In this document: in pieces, positions 9,985 to 62,334 of the stretch
Layout of the letters: every line of letters begins with the position of its first letter
Position numbering within the stretch: the first letter of the stretch is position 1
IMG/VR virus record: IMGVR_UViG_3300032167_000010
From: a virus
Taxonomy: Duplodnaviria > Heunggongvirae > Uroviricota > Caudoviricetes
DNA: 64,000 nucleotides
Direction: 5' to 3' (one strand)
Translations under genes and position numbers: made by a program
Notes under the pieces: generated by a model
Told to the model about the DNA's origin: nothing
Database searches by the model: none
The model's input: the letters and a program-made list of their open reading frames with translations, nothing else

Positions 9985-9994
9985 GCTAAATTAT
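9985..9994 (+). promoter_or_regulatory. late-type promoter motif tttGCTAAATTATTT (copy 1)
   Basis: GCTAAATTAT 36 nt upstream of ATG 10023. Confidence 0.5.
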
Positions 9995-10022
9995 TTGATT
10001 AACTTCAAAGGAGACCATACTT

Positions 10023-10562
10023 ATGGCAATAATAGAAAACTTTAGTACATTATCACAAGAAGAACTTAAAGAGTTTGTTGATAAACTTATAAAAACTATT
10101 AACACAGAGCAGATCTTCGCAGATAATGCTGAACTTACATTGGATACTCAATGTGCTATAGAGACAAGTGATTTTGATGGCAATCTTTATATCCCACTTG
10201 AGTGTGCTATTGATGTTGAGCGTTTTGCTAAATGGGATTGTGGTAGTCCTGAAGAACGCTTTGATATGAATAGTGCCTATAATCTAAATTTTGATAACTC
10301 TATTATAGAAGATGCAAAAAAATCATTTAAGACGCTTTCTACAACACTTGAAGGTTATAACGTAAGTTTAGAGTTAGATGATGTAGATGACGACGGATAT
10401 GAACAAGTAGAAGTAGATAGCTATTCTGAAGCAGATGCTGGTATTGGTGAGTATGAGTTCTGGGGGCATAAGAGCTACGACTCTCAGCCTTACTGTGAAG
10501 TTGAAGGTACTATAACTAAATCATGTACTTGTTATATAACACTTTGTGTTGAGCCTATTTAA
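10023..10562 (+). CDS. hypothetical highly acidic protein (179 aa)
   Basis: ORF track; SD AAAGGAGA; preceded by GCTAAATTAT motif. Confidence 0.6.
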   Translation: MAIIENFSTLSQEELKEFVDKLIKTINTEQIFADNAELTLDTQCAIETSDFDGNLYIPLECAIDVERFAKWDCGSPEERFDMNSAYNLNFDNSIIEDAKKSFKTLSTTLEGYNVSLELDDVDDDGYEQVEVDSYSEADAGIGEYEFWGHKSYDSQPYCEVEGTITKSCTCYITLCVEPI

Positions 10563-10580
10563 TAATTAAAATTAACTAAT

Positions 10581-10612
10581 AAACCCTGAGGCATATGTCT
10601 TGGGGTTTTTAT
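10581..10612 (+). terminator. putative terminator
   Basis: aaaccc..ggggttttt stem with T-run. Confidence 0.45.
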
Positions 10613-10655
10613 TTTATAAAAAATTAAAAAAATTTTCAAAAAGTTTGTAAAAACA

Positions 10656-10684
10656 GTTTACAAAATTGGAAAAATATGTTATAA
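10656..10684 (+). promoter_or_regulatory. early-class promoter
   Basis: TTTACA 10656-10661; TGtTATAAT ending 10684. Confidence 0.7.
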
Positions 10685-10721
10685 TATTGTATGTAAATAA
10701 GATTTGGAGGTTAGTTAGAAT

Positions 10722-10904
10722 ATGCCAGAACCTAAATATATACCTAAAAAAAGAACAGCACTAGATGGTAAAACTTGGTGGTGTGTTTATGACACTGTGA
10801 AAGACGCTTGGAGTACGATAATTTATTTTGGTAAGTATAAAACTAAAAAAGCTTGCCAAATAGATATTGACTTTTTCACAAAGGAGGATAAGAAGAATGA
10901 CTAA
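10722..10904 (+). CDS. hypothetical protein (60 aa)
   Basis: ORF track; SD TGGAGGT. Confidence 0.5.
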   Translation: MPEPKYIPKKRTALDGKTWWCVYDTVKDAWSTIIYFGKYKTKKACQIDIDFFTKEDKKND

Positions 10905-11229
10905 AACAGAATTTGAAGAAATGACATTAGACGAACTTTTAGAATGGGCTAATGAAAATATCAATGATATTACATACGAAGATACTTTGATTGAATTTGC
11001 AAAGCATAAGATTGATGACGATAATATTTATATGGCCATACATATCCTCGGAGCAATCTATAATAGCGAAGAAGCTTATAACAATTACTACTTATATGAC
11101 TACTCTATGGGAACTTTGGAAACTCCGACACCTATTACTTGTAAAGAAGATTTAGAACCTTACATAGACTTTGATGATGAAGAGGACTGTGAAATATATA
11201 CCTGTTGGGATTTAGACGAGGAGGAATGA
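10897..11229 (+). CDS. hypothetical acidic protein
   Basis: ORF track 10867..11229; ATG after AAGGAGGA. Confidence 0.5.
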   Translation: MTKTEFEEMTLDELLEWANENINDITYEDTLIEFAKHKIDDDNIYMAIHILGAIYNSEEAYNNYYLYDYSMGTLETPTPITCKEDLEPYIDFDDEEDCEIYTCWDLDEEE

Positions 11230-11231
11230 TT

Positions 11232-11441
11232 ATGATTAAGTGTGTATATTTGATTAAATGTGAACGAGATGCGTATGACCCTAATGATATCACCGCTACT
11301 TACACGGATATAGTAGGTTTTGTAGACGACGTTGAAGTTGCAAAAGCATACTGTCTTAAAAGAAATGATGGTTGGGAATACGGTCCTTACTCTTATGAAT
11401 GTGTGAGCGAACTTACTATAAAAGATATGGAGGAAAACTAA
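11232..11441 (+). CDS. hypothetical protein
   Basis: ORF track 11205..11441; ATG 7 nt after GAGGAGG. Confidence 0.5.
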   Translation: MIKCVYLIKCERDAYDPNDITATYTDIVGFVDDVEVAKAYCLKRNDGWEYGPYSYECVSELTIKDMEEN

Positions 11442-11854: not shown

Positions 11855-11930
11855 CCCTGTGGGATTAGTTTAAGTCTAGTTTTAGTATTTTATCATCACT
11901 AGATTAACTAGCCCCAGAGGGCTAAATAAA
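11855..11930 (+). other. long imperfect hairpin followed by variant late motif GCTAAATAAA
   Basis: ccctgtggg(11855-63) pairs with cccagaggg(11913-21), 49-nt enclosed region with inner ctag repeats; GCTAAATAAA 11921-11930. Confidence 0.35.
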
Positions 11931-11962
11931 GACTCAAATACATTATAAATAGGAGAACAAAT

Positions 11963-12190
11963 ATGAAAAAAGAATGCACTGGAAATCTTAAAGAGATTAT
12001 TTTAGCAATGATCGAAAACGAAACGGACTGTTGTGAAGTTACAAATACTGTCGGTGACATTTCTGTAACTGTAGACATTACTATTACTAAGATAGTAGAT
12101 AAAGGTGAAGTAGTCTACGATGCTTACGAAGATAAAGATGATCCTTACAGCGACGAGATTGATGACTACGAGCCTCGAATTTTACATTAA
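11963..12190 (+). CDS. hypothetical acidic protein (75 aa)
   Basis: ORF track; SD ATAGGAGAA. Confidence 0.5.
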   Translation: MKKECTGNLKEIILAMIENETDCCEVTNTVGDISVTVDITITKIVDKGEVVYDAYEDKDDPYSDEIDDYEPRILH

Positions 12191-12229
12191 AATTTTTTAA
12201 AAAATTTTTAAAAAAGTGGCTAAAAACAG

Positions 12230-12258: not shown

Positions 12259-12293
12259 ATAATTACAAAGATTGATTAAGGAGACCGCTTGTT

Positions 12294-22048: not shown

Positions 22049-22077
22049 TTTACAAAACTTCTTTCTTGTAGTATAAT
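22049..22077 (+). promoter_or_regulatory. early-class promoter (isolated copy)
   Basis: TTTACA 22049-22054; TATAAT 22072-22077; 17 bp spacer. Confidence 0.6.
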
Positions 22078-22160
22078 GTATCTGTATTCTGTTGAGCTGA
22101 TTTATATTAGTATCATTACTCAAAGGGGCTGACTATCTTAATTGGTAGTCGGTCTTTTTA
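22078..22160 (+). ncRNA. candidate ~80-nt small RNA (promoter + terminator unit without ORF)
   Basis: no SD or ORF between TATAAT (22077) and terminator hairpin gactatc-ttaatt-ggtagtc + T5 (22130-22160). Confidence 0.35.
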
Positions 22161-22163
22161 TTT

Positions 22164-22173
22164 GCTAAATTAT
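22164..22173 (+). promoter_or_regulatory. late-type promoter motif (copy 2)
   Basis: tatttGCTAAATTATTTaga 44 nt upstream of ATG 22217. Confidence 0.5.
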
Positions 22174-22216
22174 TTAGATAACTTATTAAATTAATAAATT
22201 TAAGGGGGCTCTCATA

Positions 22217-22741
22217 ATGAGACAAACTATAAAAGAATCGTCTAACAACAATAATATTTTATATACCAAATCTTCTGGAGAATATCTAGAGGCAAATAGC
22301 AGTGGTCATGGTTATGCTGCATATAATAAGTTCAACGTATATCTCGGACATATTAGTGCCGACTCTGATGAAGAGGCTATTAATAAGTTCATGGCTAAAG
22401 AGCCTGAATATGAGTCTTTAGAAGAAGCTACTAATTATGATTTTACCAGATATAAACTACACGCAGAAATAGTAATCGAAAGAGAGTACGGGGAAGATGC
22501 TGAATATCACTTAATGAATTACCATAAGTACTATCAAGCCTTCGAACCTGAATATATCTTATTATATGAATTAATAGACCAAGGCAAGTTTATAATAGTT
22601 ACTACAAGTAATGATGCAATAGAAGAGTTTGATACTATAACAGAAGCTAATAATTACTGGGATGAGTTCTTCTCTGAACCTGAAGATGAAGAATCTTTTG
22701 TAAAAGATGCCGCAGATAACTGGCATACACAAGAGTGGTAA
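22217..22741 (+). CDS. hypothetical acidic protein (174 aa)
   Basis: ORF track; SD AAGGGGG. Confidence 0.55.
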   Translation: MRQTIKESSNNNNILYTKSSGEYLEANSSGHGYAAYNKFNVYLGHISADSDEEAINKFMAKEPEYESLEEATNYDFTRYKLHAEIVIEREYGEDAEYHLMNYHKYYQAFEPEYILLYELIDQGKFIIVTTSNDAIEEFDTITEANNYWDEFFSEPEDEESFVKDAADNWHTQEW

Positions 22742-22760: not shown

Positions 22761-22792
22761 AAAGACCTTTCAAGTAATTGAGAGGTCTTTTC
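22761..22792 (+). terminator. rho-independent terminator
   Basis: aaagacctttc-aagtaattg-agaggtcttt plus T-run. Confidence 0.65.
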
Positions 22793-22796
22793 TTTT

Positions 22797-22806
22797 GCTA
22801 AATTAT
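22797..22806 (+). promoter_or_regulatory. late-type promoter motif (copy 3)
   Basis: ttttGCTAAATTATCTaga 39 nt upstream of ATG 22845. Confidence 0.5.
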
Positions 22807-22844
22807 CTAGATATTAATTCTTGATAAAAGGCGGAACTTGCTAA

Positions 22845-23456
22845 ATGAACTTTAATGATGTATATTCTACACTAGAAACTTTATATGAAGCGAAGAGGGT
22901 AATCCATGATGCAGACATCCTTTACCACTTCACTAACCCGACACCATTCTTAAAGATCTTTAAAGAGGATTGCTTACGCGCAGACGTTCATCTAGACGCA
23001 GTTTGTCTAACCACAGATAAGGACTACCAGATCTACGGGTATCCCTGTGGCATCCAGTTTAGTCGTAGCAAATTAACCCAGGCAGGTTACGATCTAGTTC
23101 CCTTTGATGAATTCGAAGATGACCCAGAATCTAGAGGAGAATCAGAGGAGCGCATCTATGGGAACATTAATAACATGTCTAACTACGTAACTGCCGTCTA
23201 TATAAATTGGGAAAACATCTCATTAGTACAAAGTGCTGAGGGGGACAGAATAGCAGATGCTGTATATGATGAGCAAGGAAATGAAGATGAGACCTATGAC
23301 TTAATGCTAGAAGAATTCAGGTCCTTACTATCAGAACTAAAGGGTAGAGGAATTAGAGTAGTAGAGAAAGGTTACCCGGTGACCGGTGAATATTATTTAG
23401 ATACAGACGGGACTCTTCAGTATGGTCAGATGCCAGCACTTAGCACTGCGAGCTAA
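22845..23456 (+). CDS. hypothetical protein with N-terminal MNFNDVYSTLETLYEAK motif; locally GC-richer
   Basis: ORF track; SD AAAGGCGGAA; N-terminus shared with 52078 and 51302 proteins. Confidence 0.6.
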   Translation: MNFNDVYSTLETLYEAKRVIHDADILYHFTNPTPFLKIFKEDCLRADVHLDAVCLTTDKDYQIYGYPCGIQFSRSKLTQAGYDLVPFDEFEDDPESRGESEERIYGNINNMSNYVTAVYINWENISLVQSAEGDRIADAVYDEQGNEDETYDLMLEEFRSLLSELKGRGIRVVEKGYPVTGEYYLDTDGTLQYGQMPALSTAS

Positions 23457-41370: not shown

Positions 41371-41388
41371 AAACGAACAAATTTATCC

Positions 41389-41398
41389 GCTAAATTAT
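41389..41398 (+). promoter_or_regulatory. late-type promoter motif (copy 4)
   Basis: atccGCTAAATTATTAaag 46 nt upstream of GTG 41444. Confidence 0.45.
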
Positions 41399-41443
41399 TA
41401 AAGAAGACTACAAAGTCTTACTACTATTTGGAGGATATTTGTT

Positions 41444-41869
41444 GTGATTAAAAACAAAGCGACTTTTTATCTTTTATCGTTTACTTGGGGCATTGTGATG
41501 TCTATAATTGGATGCCTAGCAGCACTCGGACTTTTAATTGCTGGGCATAAACCAGAAAAGTGGGGCTATTGCTTACATTTTAGGCTTGGTAAAAATTGGG
41601 GCGGAGTTAATTTAGGTCCAGTAATTATTACTGATGTGTATTCTGGTGATTCTAGTAGTATTAAGAACCACGAGCACGGACACGCGCTTCAGAACTGTAA
41701 ATACGGACTCTTTATGATAGTAGTTAGTATTATGTCGTTTATACGTTATTGGTACAGAGAGCTTAAGTACTATAGAAAAAACTTAATTCCACCTACTGCC
41801 TACGATGACGCTTGGTATGAAGGTGAAGCTACTAAACTAGGTGATGAGTTTATGGCAGCTTTTGAGTAA
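41444..41869 (+). CDS. integral membrane protein with HExxH (HEHGH) motif
   Basis: ORF track; GTG 8 nt after GGAGGA; 3-4 TM segments. Confidence 0.5.
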   Translation: MIKNKATFYLLSFTWGIVMSIIGCLAALGLLIAGHKPEKWGYCLHFRLGKNWGGVNLGPVIITDVYSGDSSSIKNHEHGHALQNCKYGLFMIVVSIMSFIRYWYRELKYYRKNLIPPTAYDDAWYEGEATKLGDEFMAAFE

Positions 41870-51232: not shown

Positions 51233-51257
51233 TTTGATAATTTAATAAAAATTAACT

Positions 51258-51267
51258 GCTAAATTAT
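51258..51267 (+). promoter_or_regulatory. late-type promoter motif (copy 5)
   Basis: taactGCTAAATTATTTgta 35 nt upstream of ATG 51302. Confidence 0.5.
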
Positions 51268-51301
51268 TTGTAAGAAAAAGCTCAGTGAGGAGTTTATAAA
51301 T

Positions 51302-52042
51302 ATGAATAATTTATGGAGCACGTTTTTAGAGCTAGACGCTTTATATGAAGACGTTTATGACTTTAAATCTACGAATAAAAACAATTGGATATCTATGCAA
51401 CCAAAAGCTAATGTTCAACAACCAATTGCTCAATCACAACCTATTACTAAACCTGCTATTACAAGTCCTAATGGTAAGTGTGTCGTAGTTATTGTCTCAG
51501 ATAAAGGCAGACTTAGAGCTTTTGGTACTGATGGGGTTAATCCAGGAGCTTTTGTAGCTTTTCCAAATAATTTAAGACAATTCGAAGGCCAAAAATACGA
51601 AGTTGACCAATTAATTTGGAATGGAAAAAACTATAGAGTATCTGGTAATATTAAAGAAATTAAACCAGTACCATTAACAACAACGCCTACTTCGCAATCA
51701 GCAAGCTCAGTTAATACTCAAAATAATAGTCAAAGTACTACTAGTATTGATATACCAGCTATTTTAAAAGCTTGGCTAAGTTTTATGAATGACGTGGGTT
51801 TACCTGGTGATACTTGGTATGATTATGACTTAGGAGACGATGATAAAGTTCCTTTAATTTTATCTGACTCAGATTTATTGAATGATTTAGCAGCTAAAAT
51901 TGAAATAGCTTTAAAAAACGAGGGTTTATTTGATATCTTCAGTACTTCTGATCCCGCTGAGGCACTGGATGACGATAATGATAAGGCGCTAGAAATAATT
52001 TCTTGTATTGCTGATGAAATTGTAGAACTCTTAGAGTTATAA
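51302..52042 (+). CDS. hypothetical protein with N-terminal MNNLWSTFLELDALYED motif
   Basis: ORF track; SD GTGAGGAGTT; acidic C-terminus. Confidence 0.6.
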   Translation: MNNLWSTFLELDALYEDVYDFKSTNKNNWISMQPKANVQQPIAQSQPITKPAITSPNGKCVVVIVSDKGRLRAFGTDGVNPGAFVAFPNNLRQFEGQKYEVDQLIWNGKNYRVSGNIKEIKPVPLTTTPTSQSASSVNTQNNSQSTTSIDIPAILKAWLSFMNDVGLPGDTWYDYDLGDDDKVPLILSDSDLLNDLAAKIEIALKNEGLFDIFSTSDPAEALDDDNDKALEIISCIADEIVELLEL

Positions 52043-52077: not shown

Positions 52078-52779
52078 ATGAATTTTAATAGTGTTTTTGA
52101 AGAACTTAGCAGTCTTTATGAAGAAAAGGTTGTAGAAGAAGTTAAACCTACAGAAGAAGAACTTAAAGTGGAAGAGCGCTGCTCAAATGAAGCTGAGCCT
52201 TGCGAAGAAGCTTGTGCTAAAAAATTAGAAGAGGCTACCAATGAAGAAGAAACTGAAACTGTTAATGACGAAGCTCCAGTAGAAGAAGTTTCTGAAGAAG
52301 AACCCGCAGGTGAAATTGAATTTGCAGAAGAACCTGTTGAACCTATTGCTAGACAGCTAATTCTTGAATGCTCTAAATGCGGTGCAATTATAATCAAAGA
52401 TGAAGCTGACGTAGTTATTGATGAAGAATCTGATTTAGTAAATATCGAAGAAGAGTGTCCATTCTGTGAAGAAACAGAAGGCTACAAGATTATTGGTGTT
52501 GTTGCTCCATATGAAGCAATTGAAGAAGACTCTGTAGAAGTATCCGAAGAACTTGAACCTGTAGAAGCTAATGATAATGCAGATTTAAATGAGTATTATG
52601 ACGCTGAAGCTCCTCTTGGAAGAGACACGCCTTATTATACTAATAGCGCTAAATCTTGGGGAGACCCAGTCCCACAATGGTGGTTAGACCAAGGCGGTAC
52701 TCGAGCAAGCTGGAATGCACGAAATACTTCTAGTGGTCGCAAATGGGATGAAGAAACCGGCGGAAAGGATAGATATTAA
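52078..52779 (+). CDS. highly acidic Glu-rich protein with N-terminal MNFNSVFEELSSLYEEK motif and two CxxC pairs
   Basis: ORF track; SD AAGGAGACTTAT. Confidence 0.6.
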   Translation: MNFNSVFEELSSLYEEKVVEEVKPTEEELKVEERCSNEAEPCEEACAKKLEEATNEEETETVNDEAPVEEVSEEEPAGEIEFAEEPVEPIARQLILECSKCGAIIIKDEADVVIDEESDLVNIEEECPFCEETEGYKIIGVVAPYEAIEEDSVEVSEELEPVEANDNADLNEYYDAEAPLGRDTPYYTNSAKSWGDPVPQWWLDQGGTRASWNARNTSSGRKWDEETGGKDRY

Positions 52780-54076: not shown

Positions 54077-54460
54077 ATGATATATACTACTTATTTTGCT
54101 AAACTTAGGTCTTTACCTAAAAATATTATTCCTATTGCTATTTGTGCAAAGCCGCCTGTGGGCTATCGAGGACCGGCTTATAGACAGCTTGCACCACACT
54201 ATGACTTTTACAGTCAATATAAAGTCAGTGGTGATAGAGAGTATTTTGAACAGTGTTACAACAATCTAGTATTAAAAGACTTAAATCCAACTAAAGTTAT
54301 AGCTGATTTATATGGCCTAGTAGGAAAAAGCTACTGCGACGGTGATATTGCTTTAGTATGCTACGAAAAGGCTACTGACTTTTGTCATAGACATCTGGTG
54401 GCGTATTGGTTGCAAGAAAATGGCTATAAGTGCGAAGAATTTGACTTTGACAAAAAATAA
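54077..54460 (+). CDS. DUF488-like protein
   Basis: C-terminal LVCYEKATDFCHRHLVAYWL matches the DUF488 C..CHR.L.A..L signature. Confidence 0.45.
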   Translation: MIYTTYFAKLRSLPKNIIPIAICAKPPVGYRGPAYRQLAPHYDFYSQYKVSGDREYFEQCYNNLVLKDLNPTKVIADLYGLVGKSYCDGDIALVCYEKATDFCHRHLVAYWLQENGYKCEEFDFDKK

Positions 54461-54476
54461 AGCTTACTTATTATCA

Positions 54477-54486
54477 GCTAAATTAA
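54477..54486 (+). promoter_or_regulatory. late-type promoter motif (copy 6, GCTAAATTAA)
   Basis: 21 nt upstream of ATG 54507. Confidence 0.4.
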
Positions 54487-54506
54487 TATAGTGAGGTGAT
54501 TTTGAC

Positions 54507-54692
54507 ATGTTAAAACTAGAAAAAGACACACAACAAAATCAAGAGCTTAGTAATAATATAAAACTTACTATTAAAACGCCCAAAGACTGTTTAACTGTGC
54601 CTAAAATTAACCCAAAAGAAATTAAATCTGCAGAGCAGCCAATACATCCCACTGAAAAACAAAATAATGAATCTTTATTTGAAATTTATTAA
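54507..54692 (+). CDS. hypothetical protein
   Basis: ORF track; SD GTGAGGTGATTT. Confidence 0.45.
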   Translation: MLKLEKDTQQNQELSNNIKLTIKTPKDCLTVPKINPKEIKSAEQPIHPTEKQNNESLFEIY

Positions 54693-54725
54693 GGTAGACC
54701 TTTTAAAGTCTACCTTTTATTTTTA
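54691..54725 (+). terminator. rho-independent terminator
   Basis: perfect 8-bp stem aggtagac/gtctacct + T-run. Confidence 0.7.
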
Positions 54726-54743
54726 TCTTTGATTATAAAAAGT

Positions 54744-54753
54744 GCTAAATTAT
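54744..54753 (+). promoter_or_regulatory. late-type promoter motif (copy 7)
   Basis: aaagtGCTAAATTATTTgat 48 nt upstream of TTG 54801. Confidence 0.5.
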
Positions 54754-54800
54754 TTGATATATTAATTTTATATAAAAATAACAACTAGGAGGACTTACGC

Positions 54801-55313
54801 TTGCTTAGTTATTGTACAAATTATCTAGCGACGATGCCTGAAATTACGGTATATATGAATTGTGATACCAGGCTTGCAGTAAATCTACGTATGTTTGATT
54901 TGGGCGACGATGATGAGTTTGTTTTTGCTATAAAAAACTATAATCACATTAATTCACCTTATGTATATTTATTTAAAGCTCGAAAAACTGATATAGACGA
55001 AAACGGTGAGGTGCTTTTTAAAATTGCCCCAGAGGTATCTAGACAAATAAAACCTGGCGCTTTTTATAATTTTTCTGTTTTATTAAACGCTTATAACCAG
55101 AAGAAAGAGACTGAATACAAAAAACTTACTGATAATGGAGAGATTAGAATTGAATACGGTGCTCAAGACCTTCAAACCAAGCCTGACCCTAACGACCCTA
55201 AAGGTGAAATTGTTAGTGTACGTTTTGAGTTGCTTCCTGAAGAGGCCGAGGTTGGAGTACCCAGTAAGTATTTAAGTAGTAAAATAGTTGGAATACGCTT
55301 AGAGGAGGTTTAA
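54801..55313 (+). CDS. hypothetical (probably structural) protein
   Basis: ORF track; TTG 7 nt after AGGAGGA. Confidence 0.5.
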   Translation: MLSYCTNYLATMPEITVYMNCDTRLAVNLRMFDLGDDDEFVFAIKNYNHINSPYVYLFKARKTDIDENGEVLFKIAPEVSRQIKPGAFYNFSVLLNAYNQKKETEYKKLTDNGEIRIEYGAQDLQTKPDPNDPKGEIVSVRFELLPEEAEVGVPSKYLSSKIVGIRLEEV

Positions 55314-55314
55314 T

Positions 55315-55611
55315 ATGTTAGAAATAAAAAGACCTTCTAAAAAACCTATTGTAGTAATTAGATCCGCGACAGGTAATGAGCTTTCTAACTATGAAAAACG
55401 TAAACTTGCTAATATCGAAGAGAGCGCCCAAGTAAATAAAATTGAAGTTATTAAACTTGGCGAAACGCGTCTTCCAATTGACCCGCTTAATAAAGAAGTT
55501 AGAATTGATTTAGGCAACCTTGCTTTTAAGTCAGCTATTAAGCCGGAAGACTTGTCAGCGGAAGATCTTTTCTTTATTAAATGTGAGCTGGACGAAACCG
55601 CATTAAAGTGA
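55315..55611 (+). CDS. hypothetical protein
   Basis: ORF track; SD AGAGGAGGTTTAAT. Confidence 0.5.
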   Translation: MLEIKRPSKKPIVVIRSATGNELSNYEKRKLANIEESAQVNKIEVIKLGETRLPIDPLNKEVRIDLGNLAFKSAIKPEDLSAEDLFFIKCELDETALK

Positions 55612-55622
55612 GGTAATTATAA

Positions 55623-55868
55623 ATGAACGAAGAAAAAAATAGATTAGACGAACTACTTACTGCTATTGCGGAAGGAACTGTGCCAGAAAATTGGACCTGT
55701 TTAAATCGTCTAGAGCAATACTTAATTTGTATATTAACGCGTAAAGATATTGAAACCCTTGGTGAACCTTTAAATAGACTTGAAGTTTTATTACGAGCTC
55801 TATATGAAGTAGTTCCTGAGAATGCTATTGAAGTTCTTTCTGCGCGTTTAGAAGAAACAAATAATTAA
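55623..55868 (+). CDS. hypothetical protein
   Basis: ORF track; SD GTGAGGTAAT. Confidence 0.5.
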   Translation: MNEEKNRLDELLTAIAEGTVPENWTCLNRLEQYLICILTRKDIETLGEPLNRLEVLLRALYEVVPENAIEVLSARLEETNN

Positions 55869-55888
55869 TTTAAGTGAGGAGATAGATT

Positions 55889-56101
55889 ATGGCAACTTAT
55901 AAAGTATGGCTTACTGTGAAAGATAGCTATGGCAATACTAAAGAAGTAGACGGCGGCACTATTGATGTAAATCTTGCTGAAATGACCGAGACTGAAGTTA
56001 GCACAGTAGCCGAAAAACTTGACTCTTATCTTGCTACAGATGCTGCGGTAGAGAATAAGAACACTATTAAATACTCAGACTTTGAGATAAAATCAGAGTA
56101 A
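55889..56101 (+). CDS. hypothetical protein
   Basis: ORF track; SD GTGAGGAGATAG. Confidence 0.5.
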   Translation: MATYKVWLTVKDSYGNTKEVDGGTIDVNLAEMTETEVSTVAEKLDSYLATDAAVENKNTIKYSDFEIKSE

Positions 56102-56110
56102 TAAGGAGTT

Positions 56111-57787
56111 ATGAAAATGAATGATTTTAAAATTAAACGTGGCCTATCATCAGTAGTATTTATCGAGCCGGGAGTGATTAATCCACAACTAGTTATTGAA
56201 GAAGGCTGTTGGTATCTTTGTACTGACACCGCAGAACTTTATTTAGGTGTTCAGATAGACACTGGCTTAACATTAAAGAAAATTAATGGTCATAATGCAG
56301 TAGATATCCCAACTCAATCACCTGACGGTGGAGATGGTGAAGCTCCTAGAGGTTTAATCGGTGCTTATATAGATGAAGCTGGAGAGCTTTGTGTAATTTT
56401 TTCAGATAATACTGAAGAATCGCTTGGTGTGGTTGTTGGCAAAAACGGTATTGACGGTAAAGATGGTACCAACGGTATCGATGGCCGCGATGGTATTACA
56501 CCACATATCGGTGATAATGGAAATTGGTACCTTGGAGAACTAAACACCGGAGTTTCTGCAGCCGGTACTGAGGGCCCACAAGGACCTCAAGGTGAAGCTG
56601 GTCCCCAAGGTAGTCAAGGTGAAAAAGGCGAAAAAGGTGACGCTTTTACATACGAAGATTTTACAGAAGAGCAATTAGCTGCTCTTAAAGGTGAACAAGG
56701 TCCCACAGGTAAAGACGGTTATACTCCCGTTAAAGGTGTTGACTATTTTGATGGAGCTGCGGGTAAAGACGGTAAAGACGGTTTAACTACCGCTGTAAAG
56801 GTTAACGGTACTGTTTATGAACACGACAACGGCGTTATTGAATTACCTAACTTTATTACTGAACATCAATCTTTAGCAGACTATGCCAAAAAGACAGACT
56901 TATTTAGTAAGTCTTATAATGATTTAACTGATAAGCCTACTATTCCTTCTATTGAAGGCCTAGCGACAGAAGATTATATAAATAATGCTATTGCAAATAT
57001 CAAACATCCTGCTAGTCCGACAAAAGTAAGTGATTTAGAAAATGACGCAGGCTATATTACTTCTGCGGATATTCCTGAAACTGACTTAAGTAATTATTAC
57101 ACAAAGACAGAAGTTGATAATAAAATACTTGACATAAAAGCTAATGATGTACCTTTTACAAGCGCTAAATTTGTTGCAAAAGCGTTTGGCGGATTTGCCG
57201 TCGGTGATGATTTAAACGGCTTAACTGTTGCTCAATTATTTGCTAAATTATTAGAGCTAACTGATACTAAACCTGGTGAAAATCCTGACGTCCCTGAGGT
57301 TCCAACTGAGCCAGACGGCGTAATAGATGAGATTATAACCGACAAGCTTCCTATGTATTCTGTAAATGCTGAGGGTGAAGTTATTGAGATATCTTATGAT
57401 GATGTAATTACTTATACAGAAGCTACCGCAAGTGAACAACCTACAGAGTCTGGTTTTTATCAAATAACAAATGAAACTGGCGAAGTTATTGAGTCTGGCT
57501 ACCAAGAATTAACTGCAGAAAACCCAAATACTATTTATATTATTGCATTACCTAAAGGCGTTGATTTTAATACAATGGTTACTACTCAAACTTATGACAT
57601 GCTAGAAGGTAAATGGAAAGATGATTCTCTCGAAATGTCTAGAGACTATGACACAATAAGCGGTATTTGTGAAGCACTTTCTATTGATACTTCACACATT
57701 GACCTTAAAAAATATATTCTTTGGGCAGATTTAACTTCAGGACAAGGACCTAGTGGTAAGATACATAGATTTATTATAAAGGAATAA
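56111..57787 (+). CDS. collagen-like repeat tail-fibre protein
   Basis: ~25 G-X-Y triplets (GKNGIDGKDGTNGIDGRDG...GPQGPQGEAGPQGSQGEKGEKG); SD TAAGGAGTT; alternative ATG 56117. Confidence 0.7.
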   Translation: MKMNDFKIKRGLSSVVFIEPGVINPQLVIEEGCWYLCTDTAELYLGVQIDTGLTLKKINGHNAVDIPTQSPDGGDGEAPRGLIGAYIDEAGELCVIFSDNTEESLGVVVGKNGIDGKDGTNGIDGRDGITPHIGDNGNWYLGELNTGVSAAGTEGPQGPQGEAGPQGSQGEKGEKGDAFTYEDFTEEQLAALKGEQGPTGKDGYTPVKGVDYFDGAAGKDGKDGLTTAVKVNGTVYEHDNGVIELPNFITEHQSLADYAKKTDLFSKSYNDLTDKPTIPSIEGLATEDYINNAIANIKHPASPTKVSDLENDAGYITSADIPETDLSNYYTKTEVDNKILDIKANDVPFTSAKFVAKAFGGFAVGDDLNGLTVAQLFAKLLELTDTKPGENPDVPEVPTEPDGVIDEIITDKLPMYSVNAEGEVIEISYDDVITYTEATASEQPTESGFYQITNETGEVIESGYQELTAENPNTIYIIALPKGVDFNTMVTTQTYDMLEGKWKDDSLEMSRDYDTISGICEALSIDTSHIDLKKYILWADLTSGQGPSGKIHRFIIKE

Positions 57788-57799
57788 GGAGATTTACAT

Positions 57800-58573
57800 A
57801 TGGCTTTAGAAATATCTAATCAATATCTATATACAGGTAGAGGCCCTTTTGACGCGAAGTCTATTGTAAAAACTTATGCTGACTTACTATCAGAAGAAAC
57901 TTGGAAGTCTGACAAGGGCAATATTATCGCTTATAACGGTATGGTTGTTGCGGTATGGCTTAATAAAGAAGACCCTACTAAAAACGGCATTTATTATCTG
58001 TATGATAGTGCGGTTTTATCTAATCAGACCGCGGCTTATATAGTGCCAGCACCGGATGTTACGAAAGAAGAAAACTGGCACAAATTAGCAGAAATATCTG
58101 ACCTAGAAGCTTTTACAAAAGTACTTTCTAACAGGTTAACCGAGCTCGAAGGAGTTGAGCTGTTCCAAAAAATCGAACAGGAAACTGAGTTGCCTAATAA
58201 CTTTGACTCAGACGAATTTAACCCTAATATTACATATTATAGAGTTCGTCAGCTTGGTGCTGATACTGATGCTTATATACTTTATACTTATATATATGAT
58301 AAAGACTCTAATCGTTATTTACGTAAAGCTAACGCTAATGACGCGAGAGCAAGTGTTTCCGACGTAGAGGTTAATAACGAAGGCGGTATCACAGTATACT
58401 ATTCTGATGGAACCTCAAAAACTGTCTGCGTAGGAAGCTCTAATGTTGACCTTACTAACTACGCAACTAAAGATTTCGTAGAAGAGTACGTAGACAATTC
58501 ATTTACTAGTTTTACTGAGTCACTTAAAACGACTATATTATTTGGTGGTGACTCTGACCCAAATGATGACTAA
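57800..58573 (+). CDS. hypothetical structural protein
   Basis: ORF track; SD TAAGGAGATTTA. Confidence 0.5.
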   Translation: MALEISNQYLYTGRGPFDAKSIVKTYADLLSEETWKSDKGNIIAYNGMVVAVWLNKEDPTKNGIYYLYDSAVLSNQTAAYIVPAPDVTKEENWHKLAEISDLEAFTKVLSNRLTELEGVELFQKIEQETELPNNFDSDEFNPNITYYRVRQLGADTDAYILYTYIYDKDSNRYLRKANANDARASVSDVEVNNEGGITVYYSDGTSKTVCVGSSNVDLTNYATKDFVEEYVDNSFTSFTESLKTTILFGGDSDPNDD

Positions 58574-58593
58574 AACAAAATTAATTAGAATTA

Positions 58594-58603
58594 GCTAAAT
58601 TAA
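58594..58603 (+). promoter_or_regulatory. late-type promoter motif (copy 8, GCTAAATTAA)
   Basis: 61 nt upstream of ATG 58664. Confidence 0.4.
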
Positions 58604-58663
58604 TATGTGTGTTTAAAAACATGCATAACTAAAAATAAAAATTATAATTAAAGGAGATACTTT

Positions 58664-59860
58664 ATGGCAGAACAAACTATTAATACTATTATAGTGTTAA
58701 GAAATGACTCAACCACCGAGTGGCAAAAATCTAGCTACAAGTTGAGAAGCGGCGAAGTTGGCGTTGGCTATATGACTCGTACAGTAGACGGCGAAAACAA
58801 AGTAGTGCCTATCATCAAAGTTGGTGACGGTACTAGCACCTGGAGTCAGCTTCCTCAGGCTGAAGGTGTGTTTGAACAACCTGTTACTTTAACACAGAAC
58901 TTCGGTTACTACAATGACGTACCTGCAGGTAGCTTCAAGACTTACTCAAGCACTGCTGGTATGACTACTTCAGAATTCCTTCTTAGCGCGCTTAAGAAGA
59001 CTGTTGAACCTACTATTACTCAACCAAATGCATCTTTTAGCTCTGTAAGCGCAACGGTGCAAAATAATGACCCTGAAATGGGCGCGTATATCACAGCTCT
59101 TAACTGGGATGGCTCAACATCAAACGGTAAGTACAACGTCGGTACAGCAGCTGACCAAGCTACTGGTATTAGTGCTAGCAACTTCAAGTGGTCAGTTACT
59201 ACGAATAAAACAATTGATGGCAACCCTCCTGCTGCATCAGACCAGGTAGATGGTTCCTTCGCATTAGCAGACAATTCAGCTAACGAAGGTGGTGTAGATA
59301 ACCGTATTCAAATTACGTCTGAATCTAGCACAGAATATGCTAAGATTTATGCAACAGTTACTTTAGATTTGACAAATACTACTGTTAATGCTCCTAAGAA
59401 TAACTTAAACGAAGTTACTTCTGGTACAATAACTGGTTTTGATAAAAATGGCACTAAAACAAAAGACCTTACTGGTTCCGTTAAAGTAACTGGATATAGA
59501 AAACCTTTCTGGGGCTGGAAGAGCTCTACCGATGCTTTAGCGGATCCTACAGCCATTACTTCAGTACAAGTAAGAGCGCTTGGCAATAGTGGTACTTCTA
59601 CTGCTGGACTTCCTACTTCTCTAAAGGTGCCTGCTGGTACGAAGCAAGTTTTCTTTGCAGCAAAAGCTGGTGCCAAATCTTCTTTAACTGTTAAAAACGT
59701 AACTAAAGAGCCTGCAACCAGTGTTGCTTGTACAAAGAAAGCAAGACTTCTTACAGTTGATGGCGCTAACGGCTATACCGCAGTTGACTATGACGTATGG
59801 TATATCAATTTGGACGCACCTTTCACTGGTGAAACTAGTCTTGAGCTTACTTGGGCTTAA
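58664..59860 (+). CDS. tail-fibre-like protein
   Basis: N-terminal RNDSTTEWQ..L..GE.GV.....K.GDG.S.WS.LPQ motif common to phage tail fibres; SD AAAGGAGATAC. Confidence 0.55.
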   Translation: MAEQTINTIIVLRNDSTTEWQKSSYKLRSGEVGVGYMTRTVDGENKVVPIIKVGDGTSTWSQLPQAEGVFEQPVTLTQNFGYYNDVPAGSFKTYSSTAGMTTSEFLLSALKKTVEPTITQPNASFSSVSATVQNNDPEMGAYITALNWDGSTSNGKYNVGTAADQATGISASNFKWSVTTNKTIDGNPPAASDQVDGSFALADNSANEGGVDNRIQITSESSTEYAKIYATVTLDLTNTTVNAPKNNLNEVTSGTITGFDKNGTKTKDLTGSVKVTGYRKPFWGWKSSTDALADPTAITSVQVRALGNSGTSTAGLPTSLKVPAGTKQVFFAAKAGAKSSLTVKNVTKEPATSVACTKKARLLTVDGANGYTAVDYDVWYINLDAPFTGETSLELTWA

Positions 59861-59878
59861 TAAGGAGGGCAATATATA

Positions 59879-62251
59879 ATGGCAAAATCATATCTTGATA
59901 TTCAAAATTCAGCCTATAAAGTAGGCAATATTATGGACTGGACCAATGCCCTTACTCGTTTAAGCGGTGTTCCTGTCGATATTACAGAAGTTTATGACTC
60001 ATTTGATAAAGCAGTTGTGTATGCAGCAACAAACCCTGTTGCTTATGAAGGTCAGTTAATCACTGTTACTGAAAATGGTGATACTACTGTTTATGTAATT
60101 ACACCTTCAGAACAAGGCACTCACAAAGTTATTGAAAAAGTAGATAACGTTGATACAGAAGTAGAATATTCTATTTATATTAAGAAAGTAGGCACAGTTC
60201 CTACCGGTGATGACGCATCTATCACAGTAACTGAAGACGGAAGAGTAGCTCTTAAAGGCTTTGCTAATGCAGAAGATGCTTATTTACCTCGCGTAAAAGT
60301 AACTAATGGTGTTAGATCTATCGAGTGGGTACCTATTAACCAAATCGTTGAAGGTGACACAAATACCGTAACAAAAGTTGAAGTTGCTGAAGGCTCTGCA
60401 CTTAGTATTGAGAAAGACGAAGATGTTAATACTGACACTGTTACATATACTCTTGACGTAGCAATTCCTGAATATGCTGTTAAGAAGACTACTGGTACTG
60501 GCGTAGTAAATTATGAACTTACTAAAGACGGTATAGCTGTTGCAGAGCAAATCGTGGTACCTAATGCTTATAATGATTCGGCTTTAGTTGAGAGAGTTGA
60601 AGACGTTGAGGCTTTAGCTGCTGGAAATAAAGACGTTTTAGATAATGCTGTAGAAGATATAAGCGATCACGAAGACCGCTTAGAGGCTATCGAGGCATTC
60701 TTTGATGGTGCGGCTGCAGATGAAGGCGAAGGTGAAAGTCTTAAAAATGCTCTTGATACTTTAGTTGAAATCCAAACTTTTATTAATACTGAAGGTGAAA
60801 CTGCTAAAGATTTACTTGATGCTATTAACGAAAATACCGAGGATATCGCTGCTTTACAAAAGACCTTAGCTACTAACGGCGACTTTGAAAAACGCGTAGC
60901 TGAGGTTGAAGCTAAGGCATCTAATAATACTAGTGACATTGAGGCACTTCAAGAACTTACTACTACTAGTGGCGCAATCTATACAGCAATTAACGCTGCT
61001 AAAGATCAAGCAGATAAGGGTGTAGCTGATGCTGCTACGGCTCAAGCTGCTGCAAATGCTGCTGATGCTAAAGCTGTTAATGCTCAAAAAGAAGTTGATG
61101 CTCTTGAAACTGAAGTTGCTGGTATTAAAACTACAGCTGAAGATGCCAATGCTTTAGCTATTGCAAATGATGGTCGTTTAGATACTGCAGAAGCTAATAT
61201 TGACGCTTTAGAAGCTATTGTTAAAACCGGTGCTAATACTAATGCTGCTCTTAGAGAAGCTATTACAGAACTCCAAGGTATTGTTAAAACTGGAGATGAT
61301 GCAAATAGCGCACTTCGTACTGACCTAACAAATTTGGGTAAAGATTTAAGCGACTTAGCTACAGCTATTAATGATGAAAATAGCGGTCTCGCTAAAACTA
61401 ACGAAATTGCTGATAATGCAGCATCTTTAGCTGCTGAAAACGCCGGCCGTTTAGATACTGCAGAAGCTGATATTGATGTGTTACAAGAAATCGTAGATTC
61501 TGGTGATGGTAAAACAATTAGAAACGATATTACTGCACTTCAACAATTAACTGGTGATGGTTCTAAAGGTAATAACGCTTTATATACAGAAATCTCTAGA
61601 GTTGCTGGATTGGTGGATAATAAGACAGCTGGCCTTAGTGCAACAAAAGCTATCGCAGACAATGCCGCTAGTGAAGCATCTGATGCACATAGCCGTTTAG
61701 ATGATATTGATACTATCTTAACTGGGTACGAGGATATTAACGTTAAAGATGATGTAAACGACGCTAGAAACGCTGCTTATACTGCTGATGGAAAGGCAGT
61801 TGCTGCACAAAACGCTGCAGATGCTGCTCAAGGTACGGCTAATGCAGTTAAAGCTGCTGTAGAAGATGCAGCGACAGGTCTCGCTAAGACGAAAGAAGTT
61901 GCTGACGCCGCTGCCGCAAAAGCTGCTGAAAACGCTGGTCGTTTAGATACAGCTGCAGATGCTATTGAGGATTTAGAAAGTATTGTTTTAGATCCTGATA
62001 GCGTTGGTAATGAAAAATTACGTGCTGACTTAGACGCTATTACAGGCAGTGTTAATAACGCATCAACAGGTCTTGCTAAAACTAAAGAAATTGCTGATAA
62101 TGCAGCGGCTGCTGCAAGTGCAAATAGTGATCGTCTTGATGCTATTGAAGGTGATTGTGTAAAAATTGGCACAGATAACAAACTTTACCACGGTAAAGAC
62201 GGTGATGTTATTATTTTCTATTGCGGTTCTGCAACTGAAAATATTGATTAA
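59879..62251 (+). CDS. long Ala-rich coiled-coil fibre protein with internal repeats (790 aa)
   Basis: ORF track; SD AAGGAGGGCAAT; repeated GLAKTKEIADNAA..AENAGRLDTAE units. Confidence 0.65.
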   Translation: MAKSYLDIQNSAYKVGNIMDWTNALTRLSGVPVDITEVYDSFDKAVVYAATNPVAYEGQLITVTENGDTTVYVITPSEQGTHKVIEKVDNVDTEVEYSIYIKKVGTVPTGDDASITVTEDGRVALKGFANAEDAYLPRVKVTNGVRSIEWVPINQIVEGDTNTVTKVEVAEGSALSIEKDEDVNTDTVTYTLDVAIPEYAVKKTTGTGVVNYELTKDGIAVAEQIVVPNAYNDSALVERVEDVEALAAGNKDVLDNAVEDISDHEDRLEAIEAFFDGAAADEGEGESLKNALDTLVEIQTFINTEGETAKDLLDAINENTEDIAALQKTLATNGDFEKRVAEVEAKASNNTSDIEALQELTTTSGAIYTAINAAKDQADKGVADAATAQAAANAADAKAVNAQKEVDALETEVAGIKTTAEDANALAIANDGRLDTAEANIDALEAIVKTGANTNAALREAITELQGIVKTGDDANSALRTDLTNLGKDLSDLATAINDENSGLAKTNEIADNAASLAAENAGRLDTAEADIDVLQEIVDSGDGKTIRNDITALQQLTGDGSKGNNALYTEISRVAGLVDNKTAGLSATKAIADNAASEASDAHSRLDDIDTILTGYEDINVKDDVNDARNAAYTADGKAVAAQNAADAAQGTANAVKAAVEDAATGLAKTKEVADAAAAKAAENAGRLDTAADAIEDLESIVLDPDSVGNEKLRADLDAITGSVNNASTGLAKTKEIADNAAAAASANSDRLDAIEGDCVKIGTDNKLYHGKDGDVIIFYCGSATENID

Positions 62252-62280
62252 AATAATTTAAAAAACTTATAGTATTTAAA

Positions 62281-62306
62281 AAGGTAACCTTACACGGTTA
62301 CCTTTT
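62281..62306 (+). terminator. rho-independent terminator
   Basis: perfect aggtaacc-ttacac-ggttacct + T5. Confidence 0.7.
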
Positions 62307-62324
62307 TATTTATTAAATCTATTT

Positions 62325-62334
62325 GCTAAATTAT
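62325..62334 (+). promoter_or_regulatory. late-type promoter motif (copy 9)
   Basis: ctatttGCTAAATTATACgaa 34 nt upstream of ATG 62368. Confidence 0.5.

What the first reader, a model, noticed from the sequence alone, without database searches (positions are those of the whole stretch)
9985..62334. Conserved 'tttGCTAAATTATTT' motif marks a third (late-type) promoter class, also inside the early region
Seen in sequence: GCTAAATTAT (flanked by ttt and ttt[ga]) occurs at 9985, 22164, 22797, 41389, 51258, 54744, 62325, with GCTAAATTAA variants at 54477 and 58594 and GCTAAATAAA at 11921. Each sits ~20-70 nt upstream of a start codon and often directly after a terminator hairpin. Five copies precede genes of the fibre/structural-looking block (51.3-62.4 kb). 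Four precede isolated genes embedded in the early/middle region (10023, 22217, 22845, 41444), and none of those four has a class-1 or class-2 promoter. Inference: this is the recognition element of a phage-encoded sigma factor or activator for late transcription, and the embedded genes are late genes, possibly virion-packaged proteins injected with the DNA. I do not recognise the motif as a named late-promoter consensus.
Basis: partly seen in the sequence, partly recalled or inferred. Interest (0 to 1): 0.7.

Follow-up and report, generated by a model that had tools for sequence, protein, structure and literature searches.

The report
Late-gene promoter of gut jumbo phages
A strictly conserved GCTAAATTA sequence marks the late (virion-gene) promoters of a large, uncultured group of about 220-kb phages; it is a new consensus for a familiar kind of phage control element, and the factor that reads it was not found.

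Summary
GCTAAATTAT occurs 8 times in the window, always on the coding strand (0.68 expected). With the two GCTAAATTAA variants, 9 of 10 copies are intergenic, 30-70 nt before a start codon and often just after a terminator.

The window belongs to a 221.8-kb metagenomic phage contig. In 60 related loci fetched by protein homology, the 9-mer occurs 96 times on the coding strand and 4 on the other (about 6 expected each).

Ninety non-redundant copies give a roughly 23-bp element, AWnTATtT-GCTAAATTA-WTTRRT, with no -35 box.

The genes behind it are:
- tail fibres, tail sheath, head-tail adaptor, a T4 gp21-like head protease and a baseplate spike;
- homing endonucleases, NrdD and small ORFs.

Replication genes use a different promoter (TGTATAATA). 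Host-takeover ORFans use perfect sigma-A promoters.

"Third, late promoter class" is therefore well supported by association, but no transcript data exist.

The reading factor was not found: no sigma, gp55 or RNA polymerase homologue in about 120 kb of the roughly 222-kb genome.

GCTAAATAAA at 11921 is not a member. One "promoter-less" gene (22217) does have a sigma-A promoter upstream.

I classify it as a new variant of a known kind.

The parts
9977..9999 (+). Late-promoter element (core GCTAAATTA at 9985), 38 nt before ATG of gene 10023-10562. No terminator upstream.
   Evidence: Flanks fit the consensus (ttatttGCTAAATTAtttgat).
22156..22178 (+). Late-promoter element (core at 22164), 53 nt before gene 22217-22741. 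It follows a hairpin with a T-run, which itself follows the sigma-A promoter at 22049-22077.
22789..22811 (+). Late-promoter element (core at 22797), 48 nt before gene 22845-23456, whose product carries the leader MNFNDVYSTLETLYE.
   Evidence: Terminator 22761-22790.
41381..41403 (+). Late-promoter element (core at 41389), 55 nt before GTG 41444 (membrane protein 41444-41869). The upstream flank is weaker (tatcc).
51250..51272 (+). Late-promoter element (core at 51258), 44 nt before the operon 51302-52042 and 52078-52779. Both products carry the leader.
54469..54491 (+). Variant copy GCTAAATTAA (core at 54477), 30 nt before gene 54507-54692. It abuts a sigma-70-like match at 54447-54474, so assignment is less certain.
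54736..54758 (+). Late-promoter element (core at 54744), 57 nt before the fibre operon 54801-58573. The position is conserved in relatives.
   Evidence: cluster 2. Terminator 54691-54716.
57234..57256 (+). Intragenic copy (core at 57242) inside the collagen-like tail-fibre gene 56117-57787. Probably an internal late promoter.
   Evidence: 9 of 9 lineages keep GCT AAA TTA TTA and NTA TTN before it, while neighbouring codons vary synonymously.
58586..58608 (+). Variant copy GCTAAATTAA (core at 58594), 70 nt before genes 58664-59860 and 59879-62251. A hairpin starts at +10.
   Evidence: (same position about 65-70 nt before the homologue in many loci)
62317..62339 (+). Late-promoter element (core at 62325), 43 nt before ATG 62368 of the 2,813-aa LRR fibre gene, which runs off the window.
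   Evidence: conserved in L003, L005, L009. Terminator 62277-62308.
11921..11930 (+). Judged NOT a member.
   Evidence: It breaks the invariant T at core position 8 and lacks the A(-4)/T(-3) flank.

Best explanation
The element is the core of the late promoter class of this phage and its clade. It is a roughly 23-bp, -35-less promoter: A/T-rich TATtT, then the invariant GCTAAATTA, then WTT, then a purine pair.

The hexamer TAAATT inside the core acts as the -10 element, and transcription starts at the purines 12-13 nt after the G.

Early in infection, host sigma-A holoenzyme reads the perfect TTTACA-N17-TATAAT promoters. Replication genes use the TGTATAATA class. Late in infection, RNA polymerase is redirected to GCTAAATTA sites by a phage-encoded specificity factor. 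Most likely this is a sigma-like protein on the host core enzyme, as with T4 gp55.

This switches on the virion genes and a scattering of other genes: homing endonucleases, NrdD and leader-bearing proteins.

- **Shown:** the motif, its strand and position bias, its deep conservation, and its association with structural genes.
- **Inferred:** that it is a promoter, the start site, the late timing, and the nature of the factor.
For: **Statistics.**
- 8 exact 10-mers against 0.68 expected, all on the coding strand.
- 9 of 10 copies are intergenic.
- In 60 loci fetched by protein homology (568 kb) there are 96 coding-strand and 4 opposite-strand copies, with about 6 expected each.

**Anatomy (90 non-redundant copies).**
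- There is no information upstream of -9, so there is no -35 box.
- A(-4) is present in 82 of 90 copies, R(+12) in 86 of 90, and R(+13) in 84 of 90.
- TAAATT keeps the T-12, A-11 and T-7 positions of a -10 hexamer.

**Position.**
- The modal distance to the start codon is 30-80 nt and is variable.
- 32 of 90 copies follow a terminator-like hairpin (window examples).
- Strong hairpins with different stem sequences begin at +10 in orthologous leaders. This fits a 5'-terminal stem-loop on a transcript starting at +12/13.

**Conservation.** The 9-mer is kept at orthologous intergenic sites while flanks diverge, in relatives whose fibre proteins are only 30-83% identical.

**Function split.**
- Downstream genes include tail sheath, head-tail adaptor, head maturation protease, baseplate spike and fibres.
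- SSB, DNA polymerase, clamp, clamp loader, exonuclease and SbcD carry TGTATAATA promoters.
- Within the window's fibre block, the inserted dNMP-kinase/DUF488 genes have a class-2 promoter, not class 3.

**DNA-level selection.** The copy inside the fibre ORF shows constraint at synonymous sites.

**Precedent.** T4 late promoters are also a tightly kept single -10-region element without a -35 box, at about 50 sites.
Against: - There are no transcript 5' ends or time-course data, so both promoter function and late timing rest on association.
- No sigma, gp55, gp33 or RNA polymerase homologue was found in the window (Pfam and PHROGs), in its flanks (precomputed Pfam only) or in 30 kb of the replication module. 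A gp55 HMM over all fetched loci also found nothing in the clade.
- The element also precedes genes that are not virion parts: NrdD, PFL, homing endonucleases and an Arc-like regulator.
- Some related lineages lack it completely in the same fibre block, for example L007/L008 and L029.
- Gene 10023 has no terminator upstream, so it would also be read from the early promoter at 9176.
Confidence: 0.6

Rival explanations
1. It is a host sigma-A extended -10 promoter (TGc-TAAATT) with no new sigma. Late timing would come from a phage activator or sigma-appropriating protein, or simply from weak promoters that win once early promoters are shut off.
For: - T precedes the G in 61 of 90 copies, giving TGnTAAATT.
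- The hexamer keeps T-12, A-11 and T-7.
- The phage clearly uses host sigma-A for early genes.
- No phage sigma was found.
Against: - Sigma-A does not need C(+1), A(+4), A(+5), T(+6) or A(+8), yet these never vary in about 100 homology-retrieved copies.
- The T of the 'TG' is the less conserved base, which is the reverse of a true TGn motif.
- One-mismatch variants are at background frequency. This argues for a reader far more exacting than sigma-A.
Confidence: 0.2
2. It is the promoter of a phage-encoded RNA polymerase, either a single-subunit or a non-canonical multisubunit enzyme, encoded in the roughly 100 kb of the genome that could not be read.
For: - The element is about 23 bp, contiguous, near-invariant and runs up to the start site, like T7-type promoters.
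- Jumbo phages often encode their own polymerases.
- Only part of the genome was inspected.
Against: - The core looks like a -10 element of a sigma-dependent promoter.
- The known jumbo-phage late consensus sequences differ: AR9 is AACA-N6-TA/G and phiKZ is TATG.
- No polymerase domain was seen in any inspected stretch.
- The morphogenesis genes point to T4-like ancestry, where host core polymerase is used.
Confidence: 0.12
3. It is not a promoter. It could be an RNA-level signal (processing, stability or translational control) in leaders of read-through transcripts. It could also be an operator for a small DNA-binding protein, such as the Arc-like RHH proteins encoded directly behind some copies.
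For: - Strict strand specificity would also fit an RNA element.
- Arc-like genes follow the motif in 13 loci.
- Two copies lie downstream of another promoter plus a hairpin: 22164 and L002:2817.
Against: - Many copies lie directly after strong terminators, where little read-through RNA is expected.
- The distance to the ribosome-binding site varies from 30 to 170 nt.
- For most structural operons no other promoter-like sequence is present in the gap.
- The sequence is not palindromic, as RHH operators usually are.
- There is no Rfam match.
Confidence: 0.08

Closest known systems
Bacteriophage T4 late promoters (TATAAATA, read by gp55 with gp33 and the gp45 sliding clamp)
   Same: - A single, tightly kept -10-region element with no -35 box, present at tens of sites per genome.
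- It precedes virion genes and also scattered non-structural genes, including homing endonucleases. That T4 I-TevI is late-expressed is from my own knowledge.
- It shares the core TAAAT.
- The clade has a T4 gp21-like head protease and encodes its own clamp and clamp loader.
- It is the third tier of an early / middle / late scheme.
   Different: - The consensus is GCTAAATTA with conserved flanks (about 23 bp), not TATAAATA.
- All copies are on one strand, because all genes are.
- No gp55 or gp33 homologue was detectable in the parts read.
- The host is a Firmicute, judged from sigma-A promoters and GGAGG ribosome-binding sites.
Bacillus phage SPO1 middle and late promoters (gp28; gp33/gp34 sigma replacement)
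   Same: A Gram-positive phage with a three-tier programme, in which phage sigma-like proteins replace sigma-A on host core polymerase (own knowledge).
   Different: - SPO1 classes have both -35 and -10 boxes: AGGAGA/TTTNTTT and CGTTAGA/GATATT (own knowledge).
- The element here has none upstream.
- No gp28- or gp34-like protein was found by PHROGs or Pfam.
Late promoters of jumbo phages with their own multisubunit polymerases (AR9, phiKZ)
   Same: Jumbo genome size, short conserved late motifs close to the start site, and internal promoters inside ORFs.
   Different: - AR9 is AACA-N6-TA/G and phiKZ is TATG.
- Those phages do not rely on host polymerase for early genes. This phage has about 20 perfect sigma-A early promoters.
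Sigma-70 / sigma-A extended -10 promoters (TGnTATAAT)
   Same: No -35 box is needed. TGc-TAAATT keeps the key -10 positions.
   Different: The invariant positions go well beyond what sigma-A reads, and the T of 'TG' is only 68% conserved.

Membership tests
T4-type late promoter system (gp55/gp33/gp45) | Single -10-region element, no -35 element | tested here: met
   In the logo of 90 copies, information sits only from -8 to +14.
T4-type late promoter system (gp55/gp33/gp45) | Consensus TATAAATA | tested here: not met
   The core is GCTAAATTA and only TAAAT is shared. Searched in two distant cultured relatives (SP-15, GXN1), TATAAATA was rare and not strand-biased.
T4-type late promoter system (gp55/gp33/gp45) | Phage encodes a gp55 homologue | tested here: inconclusive
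   - A gp55 HMM built from 6 phages found nothing in the clade's loci.
- PHROGs and Pfam found nothing in about 120 kb.
- About 100 kb of the genome was not read.
T4-type late promoter system (gp55/gp33/gp45) | Phage-encoded sliding clamp and clamp loader | tested here: met
   Hits to DNA polymerase processivity factor (E 4e-14) and clamp loader (E 3e-24) in L305. L305 comes from a sample that also carries this phage.
T4-type late promoter system (gp55/gp33/gp45) | Drives virion structural genes | tested here: met
   Sheath, adaptor, head protease, baseplate spike and fibres lie downstream.
T4-type late promoter system (gp55/gp33/gp45) | Activity coupled to DNA replication and late in infection | not testable with these tools
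   This needs expression data from an infected host, and the host is unknown.
Sigma-A extended -10 promoter | TG at -15/-14 plus a TATAAT-like hexamer | tested here: inconclusive
   G is invariant, but the T is present in only 61 of 90 copies. The hexamer TAAATT matches 4 of 6 positions, including T-12, A-11 and T-7.
Jumbo-phage non-virion RNA polymerase late promoters (AR9 / phiKZ type) | Consensus AACA-N6-TA/G or TATG at the start site, plus split beta/beta' polymerase genes | tested here: not met
   The consensus differs. No polymerase domains were seen in the inspected parts. Early promoters are sigma-A type.
SPO1 gp33/34 late promoters | Bipartite CGTTAGA-N18-GATATT (own knowledge) | tested here: not met
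   There is no upstream box, and the -10 region is different.

The most novel reading that the evidence does not exclude
The promoter is read by a specificity factor, or a polymerase, with no detectable sequence similarity to sigma-70, gp55 or the SPO1 sigmas. Related lineages that lack the motif (for example the 223.7-kb contig behind L008) would then have swapped both promoter and factor. That would give a natural pair for finding a new family of late-transcription factors in gut jumbo phages. In addition, the MNFxSxFEELxxLYE leader would be a capsid-targeting signal that loads diverse cargo proteins into the head for injection.
Probability: 0.3. Interest if true: 0.65.

Novelty: new variant of a known kind. 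Interest (0 to 1): 0.45.

Why it matters
- **Annotation.** The element gives a simple, highly specific sequence tag. The 9-mer plus its flanks marks late transcription units in a widespread, entirely uncultured clade of about 205-235-kb phages from gut and animal metagenomes, where most genes are ORFans. It sorts genes into temporal and functional classes without expression data, and it flags candidate virion proteins.
- **Transcription programme.** It shows that these phages run a T4-like three-tier programme on host polymerase, using a different late signal.
- **Finding the factor.** Lineages with and without the motif can be compared to find the unknown factor that reads it.
- **Limits.** It does not overturn any current view. 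Phage-specific late promoters without a -35 box are well known.

Tried and rejected
1. **Close relatives in GenBank phages.** Megablast of 32 kb of the window found nothing. tblastn of the fibre block found only weak hits in a Faecalibacterium phage and a faecal-sample phage.
2. **Search for the factor.**
   - Pfam and PHROGs on concatenated chunks of the window's gene products (PHROGs left out a few already Pfam-annotated genes) found no sigma, gp55, gp33 or polymerase.
   - The same was true for L305/L316.
   - A gp55 HMM built from T4, 44RR, VH7D, S-8S55, ACP17 and Atu_ph07 was run against 9,109 ORFs. It hit only one unrelated T4-like contig.
3. **Synteny lead.** In T4-like phages gp55 sits next to gp47/gp46. 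The 272-aa ORFan next to the SbcD/SbcC homologues gave no PHROG or Pfam hit, and hhalign against gp55 gave probability 0.2%. I rejected it as unsupported.
4. **Concatenated query.** I used a five-protein query to reach other parts of the contig.
5. **IMG/VR scan with the 14-mer** was swamped by chance hits.
6. **Cultured distant relatives.** SP-15 and Streptococcus phage GXN1 do not use the motif in their structural regions.
7. **Literature.** Searches found no prior description of the 9-mer as a phage promoter.
8. **RNA genes.** No Rfam family or tRNA overlaps the copies.
9. **Host alternative sigmas.** I considered SigD, sporulation sigmas and the TcdR group from memory. None has a matching -10 element. 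This was not tested further.
Full report
**1. The observation**

GCTAAATTAT occurs 8 times in the 64-kb window, all on the + strand: 9985, 22164, 22797, 41389, 51258, 54744, 57242 and 62325. Dinucleotide-preserving shuffles give a mean of 0.68 and never more than 3.

The two GCTAAATTAA variants at 54477 and 58594 are present.

- One-mismatch neighbours as a class are at background: 19 found, 16.4 expected.
- The 7-mer GCTAAAT is also at background: 21 found, 20.7 expected.
- What is special is therefore the exact 9-mer GCTAAATTA followed by T or A.

Nine of the ten + strand copies lie between genes, though gaps make up only about 9% of the window. The tenth, 57242, lies inside the tail-fibre ORF 56117-57787.

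Distances from the motif to the next start codon are 30-70 nt. Terminator-like hairpins end shortly before 22797, 54744 and 62325.

GCTAAATAAA at 11921 breaks a position that never varies elsewhere and lacks the conserved flanks. I do not count it.

**2. The setting**

All genes in the window are on the + strand, and GC content is 34%. The intergenic regions fall into three classes.

| Class | Sequence | Where |
|---|---|---|
| 1 | aaaaacagTTTACAaa-N17-TATAATAta, a near-perfect sigma-A promoter with an A/T-rich upstream region | About 18 copies from the window start to 22.1 kb, and six more just upstream of the window, in front of short ORFans, RNase H and DNA ligase |
| 2 | ttaT(T/C)GTAT(A/T)ATATAAt, with no -35 box | Scattered from 14.7 kb onward |
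| 3 | The element under study | See section 1 |

The window is part of a 221,766-bp metagenome contig (ENA ERZ27248446, k141_1405776). The flanks hold two more copies:
- one 54 nt before the anaerobic ribonucleotide reductase gene nrdD (L002:2817);
- one before the next fibre operon (L001:21944, equivalent to window position 71822).

Nothing close exists in GenBank phages. The best ligase match is 43% identity, to Geobacillus virus E3.

**3. Relatives**

The 398-aa protein encoded at 58664-59860 has hundreds of homologues, many on contigs of 205-235 kb. I fetched loci around them from ENA, Logan, JGI, GTDB and IMG/VR.

In 60 such loci (568 kb), chosen without regard to the motif, GCTAAATTA occurs 96 times on the coding strand and 4 times on the other. 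Base composition predicts about 6 on each.

The 9-mer sits at the same intergenic positions while the surrounding DNA has diverged. It lies before the 398-aa gene, before the 170-aa gene that heads the fibre operon, and before the giant LRR fibre gene. These relatives have fibre proteins only 30-83% identical to the window's.

Core genes of these phages are much closer. The RecA-like protein encoded in L199/L305 (not in the window contig) is 89-95% identical in the IMG/VR relatives. The clade is therefore tighter than the fibre genes suggest, but the intergenic flanks still differ.

Many stretches have 2-8 same-strand copies and 0-2 on the other strand, and several lie on contigs of 210-260 kb.

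A few related lineages lack the motif completely in the same block: L007/L008, L029 and L046.

**4. Anatomy**

Ninety non-redundant copies give A(-8) W n T(-5) A(-4) T(-3) t T(-1) GCTAAATTA W T T R(+12) R(+13) T.
- A(-4) is present in 82 of 90 copies.
- R(+12) is present in 86 of 90, and R(+13) in 84 of 90.
- There is no information further upstream, so there is no -35 box.

TAAATT within the core keeps the three key positions of a -10 hexamer (T-12, A-11, T-7). That places the expected start at the conserved purines.

In several orthologous leaders a strong hairpin begins at +10, with energies of -22 to -26 kcal/mol and z-scores of -6 to -9. The stem sequence differs between lineages. A transcript starting at +12/13 would carry this as a 5'-terminal stem-loop. 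In Gram-positive bacteria such stem-loops are a known way of stabilising mRNA (my own knowledge).

The distance to the start codon peaks at 30-80 nt. One gene family, a 277-aa protein with no annotated function, always sits 163-168 nt downstream.

**5. What lies downstream**

I clustered 226 downstream ORFs and annotated the main clusters:
- the 398-aa and 170-aa fibre-block proteins;
- the giant fibre;
- tail sheath (PHROG E 1e-12);
- head-tail adaptor (3e-11);
- head maturation protease (4e-25, T4 gp21-like by tblastn);
- a baseplate spike-like protein (by sequence inspection; no PHROG hit);
- an Arc-like ribbon-helix-helix protein (7e-6, 13 loci);
- NrdD and a pyruvate-formate-lyase-like enzyme;
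- GIY-YIG homing endonucleases.

I also read a 30-kb replication module from IMG/VR contig 3300024303_001775. That sample also holds a near-identical copy of this phage (L191). In the module, class-2 promoters precede SSB, DNA polymerase, the sliding clamp, the clamp loader, an exonuclease and SbcD. GCTAAATTA precedes only the three homing endonucleases and a few small ORFs.

Inside the window's fibre block, the inserted dNMP-kinase and DUF488 genes have a class-2 promoter, while the fibre genes around them have class 3.

This division is what a temporal programme of early, middle and late genes would produce: host-takeover ORFans, replication genes and virion genes, each with its own promoter type. 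It is the main reason to call class 3 'late'. It remains an association. There are no RNA data.

**6. The copy inside the fibre gene**

In nine distinct lineages the peptide (I/L/V)(F/L)AKLL(G/E)L is always encoded as NTA TTN GCT AAA TTA TTA. Codons on either side vary freely at synonymous sites.

From the window's codon usage, GCT-AAA-TTA has a chance of about 0.13 per lineage. The A at -4, which is the strongest flank position of the logo, is also kept. This points to selection on the DNA itself, so it is probably an internal late promoter.

**7.

I looked for a sigma factor, T4 gp55 or gp33, or a phage RNA polymerase.
- **Window:** Pfam and PHROGs on concatenated chunks of its gene products; the PHROGs runs left out a few already Pfam-annotated genes.
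- **Flanks:** the precomputed Pfam lists.
- **Replication module:** PHROGs and Pfam.
- **All fetched loci:** a gp55 HMM.

Nothing was found. A 272-aa ORFan next to the SbcD/SbcC homologues occupies the position gp55 has in T4-like phages, but profile comparison gave no support.

Roughly 100 kb of the genome could not be read, and my last homologue search failed. The factor is therefore unidentified.

**8. Explanation and rivals**

The best-supported reading is a late promoter without a -35 box, read by RNA polymerase that has been redirected by a phage-encoded specificity factor. I put 0.6 on this as a whole. I put about 0.85 on 'late-class promoter' and about 0.5 on 'phage sigma-like factor on host core'.

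| Rival | Weight | Main reason it ranks lower |
|---|---|---|
| Sigma-A extended -10 promoter plus an activator | 0.2 | The invariant positions go far beyond what sigma-A reads |
| Promoter of a phage-encoded polymerase in the unread part | 0.12 | The core looks like a sigma-dependent -10 element, and no polymerase domain was seen |
| RNA-level signal or operator | 0.08 | Many copies follow terminators, and the distance to the ribosome-binding site varies |

**9. Comparison with known systems**

The closest analogue in logic is the T4 late promoter.
- It is one tightly kept -10-region element with no -35 box, at about 50 sites.
- The clade shares T4-like head maturation (gp21-type protease) and has its own clamp and loader.

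It is not a member of the T4 system as defined. The consensus differs, and no gp55 was found. It also differs from:
- the AR9 and phiKZ late motifs;
- the SPO1 classes (my own knowledge);
- its distant cultured relatives SP-15 and GXN1, which lack the motif.

I found no earlier description of the 9-mer as a phage promoter.

**10. Verdict**

The late promoter class is well supported by association. The sigma or activator is not shown. The virion-packaging idea has one suggestive line of evidence.
- Novelty: a new variant of a known kind.
- Interest: moderate, 0.45.

Noticed in passing
window 22845-22895, 51302-51355, 52078-52128; L009:2273, L021:2334, L033:1410, L037:2382: Otherwise dissimilar, often acidic proteins of 203-807 aa share an N-terminal leader, MNF(N/I)S(V/A/T)FEEL(N/S/D)(K/S)LYE. 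All are the first or second gene behind a GCTAAATTA copy. The clade has a T4 gp21-like head protease, and in T4 that protease cuts after L/I-x-E. The leader may therefore be a capsid-targeting, cleaved signal for packaged proteins.
   Followed up: partly
window 57234-57256 (inside ORF 56117-57787): The motif copy inside the collagen-like fibre gene is kept codon for codon in nine lineages, while neighbouring synonymous sites vary. It is probably an internal promoter.
   Followed up: yes
L002:5690-5900 and L002:7674-7860 (about 4.0 and 2.0 kb upstream of the window start): Two sigma-A-type promoters are each followed by about 150-200 nt with no ORF and with similar sequence (…cacagaaggaa…). These are candidate early small RNAs. 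There was no Rfam match.
   Followed up: no
window 22049-22160: A perfect TTTACA-N17-TATAAT promoter drives only about 75 nt before a hairpin with a T-run, and the late element follows directly at 22164. A similar layout stands before nrdD (L002:2725-2870): class-2 promoter, hairpin, then late element. These could be short RNAs or attenuator-type leaders.
   Followed up: partly
L007/L008 (ena:ERZ27316097:k141_496880, 223,748 bp), also L029, L046: Related phages with the same fibre-block gene order have no GCTAAATTA at all. Their gaps show TTGTATAT-like sequences instead. This may be a lineage-specific swap of late promoter and factor.
   Followed up: partly
L305:688-1416, 4875-5864, 9136-9882: Three GIY-YIG homing endonuclease genes interrupt or flank the replication genes, and the DNA polymerase is split around one of them. 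Each has its own late element, while their neighbours use class-2 promoters.
   Followed up: partly
window 62368 onward; L190:1560-20681: There is a 2,813-aa fibre protein with coiled-coil and LRR_5 regions. It is followed by at least four more LRR_5 proteins in one operon. This block is the most variable part of the clade.
   Followed up: no
13 IMG/VR loci (cluster 3, e.g. L251, L158); L305:9845-9988; L316:17601-17753: Small Arc/CopG-like ribbon-helix-helix genes of 47-56 aa recur, often directly behind a late element. They may act as late-stage regulators.
   Followed up: partly
P0121 (L001:20931-21611): The identical 226-aa protein is also recorded on a 444,602-bp contig, twice the genome length. 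This could be a concatemer assembly or a mis-join.
   Followed up: no
L316:13334-14152: A 272-aa ORFan sits directly after the SbcD/SbcC homologues, where T4-like phages carry gp55. It has homologues in two relatives but no detectable similarity to gp55 or any family.
   Followed up: yes
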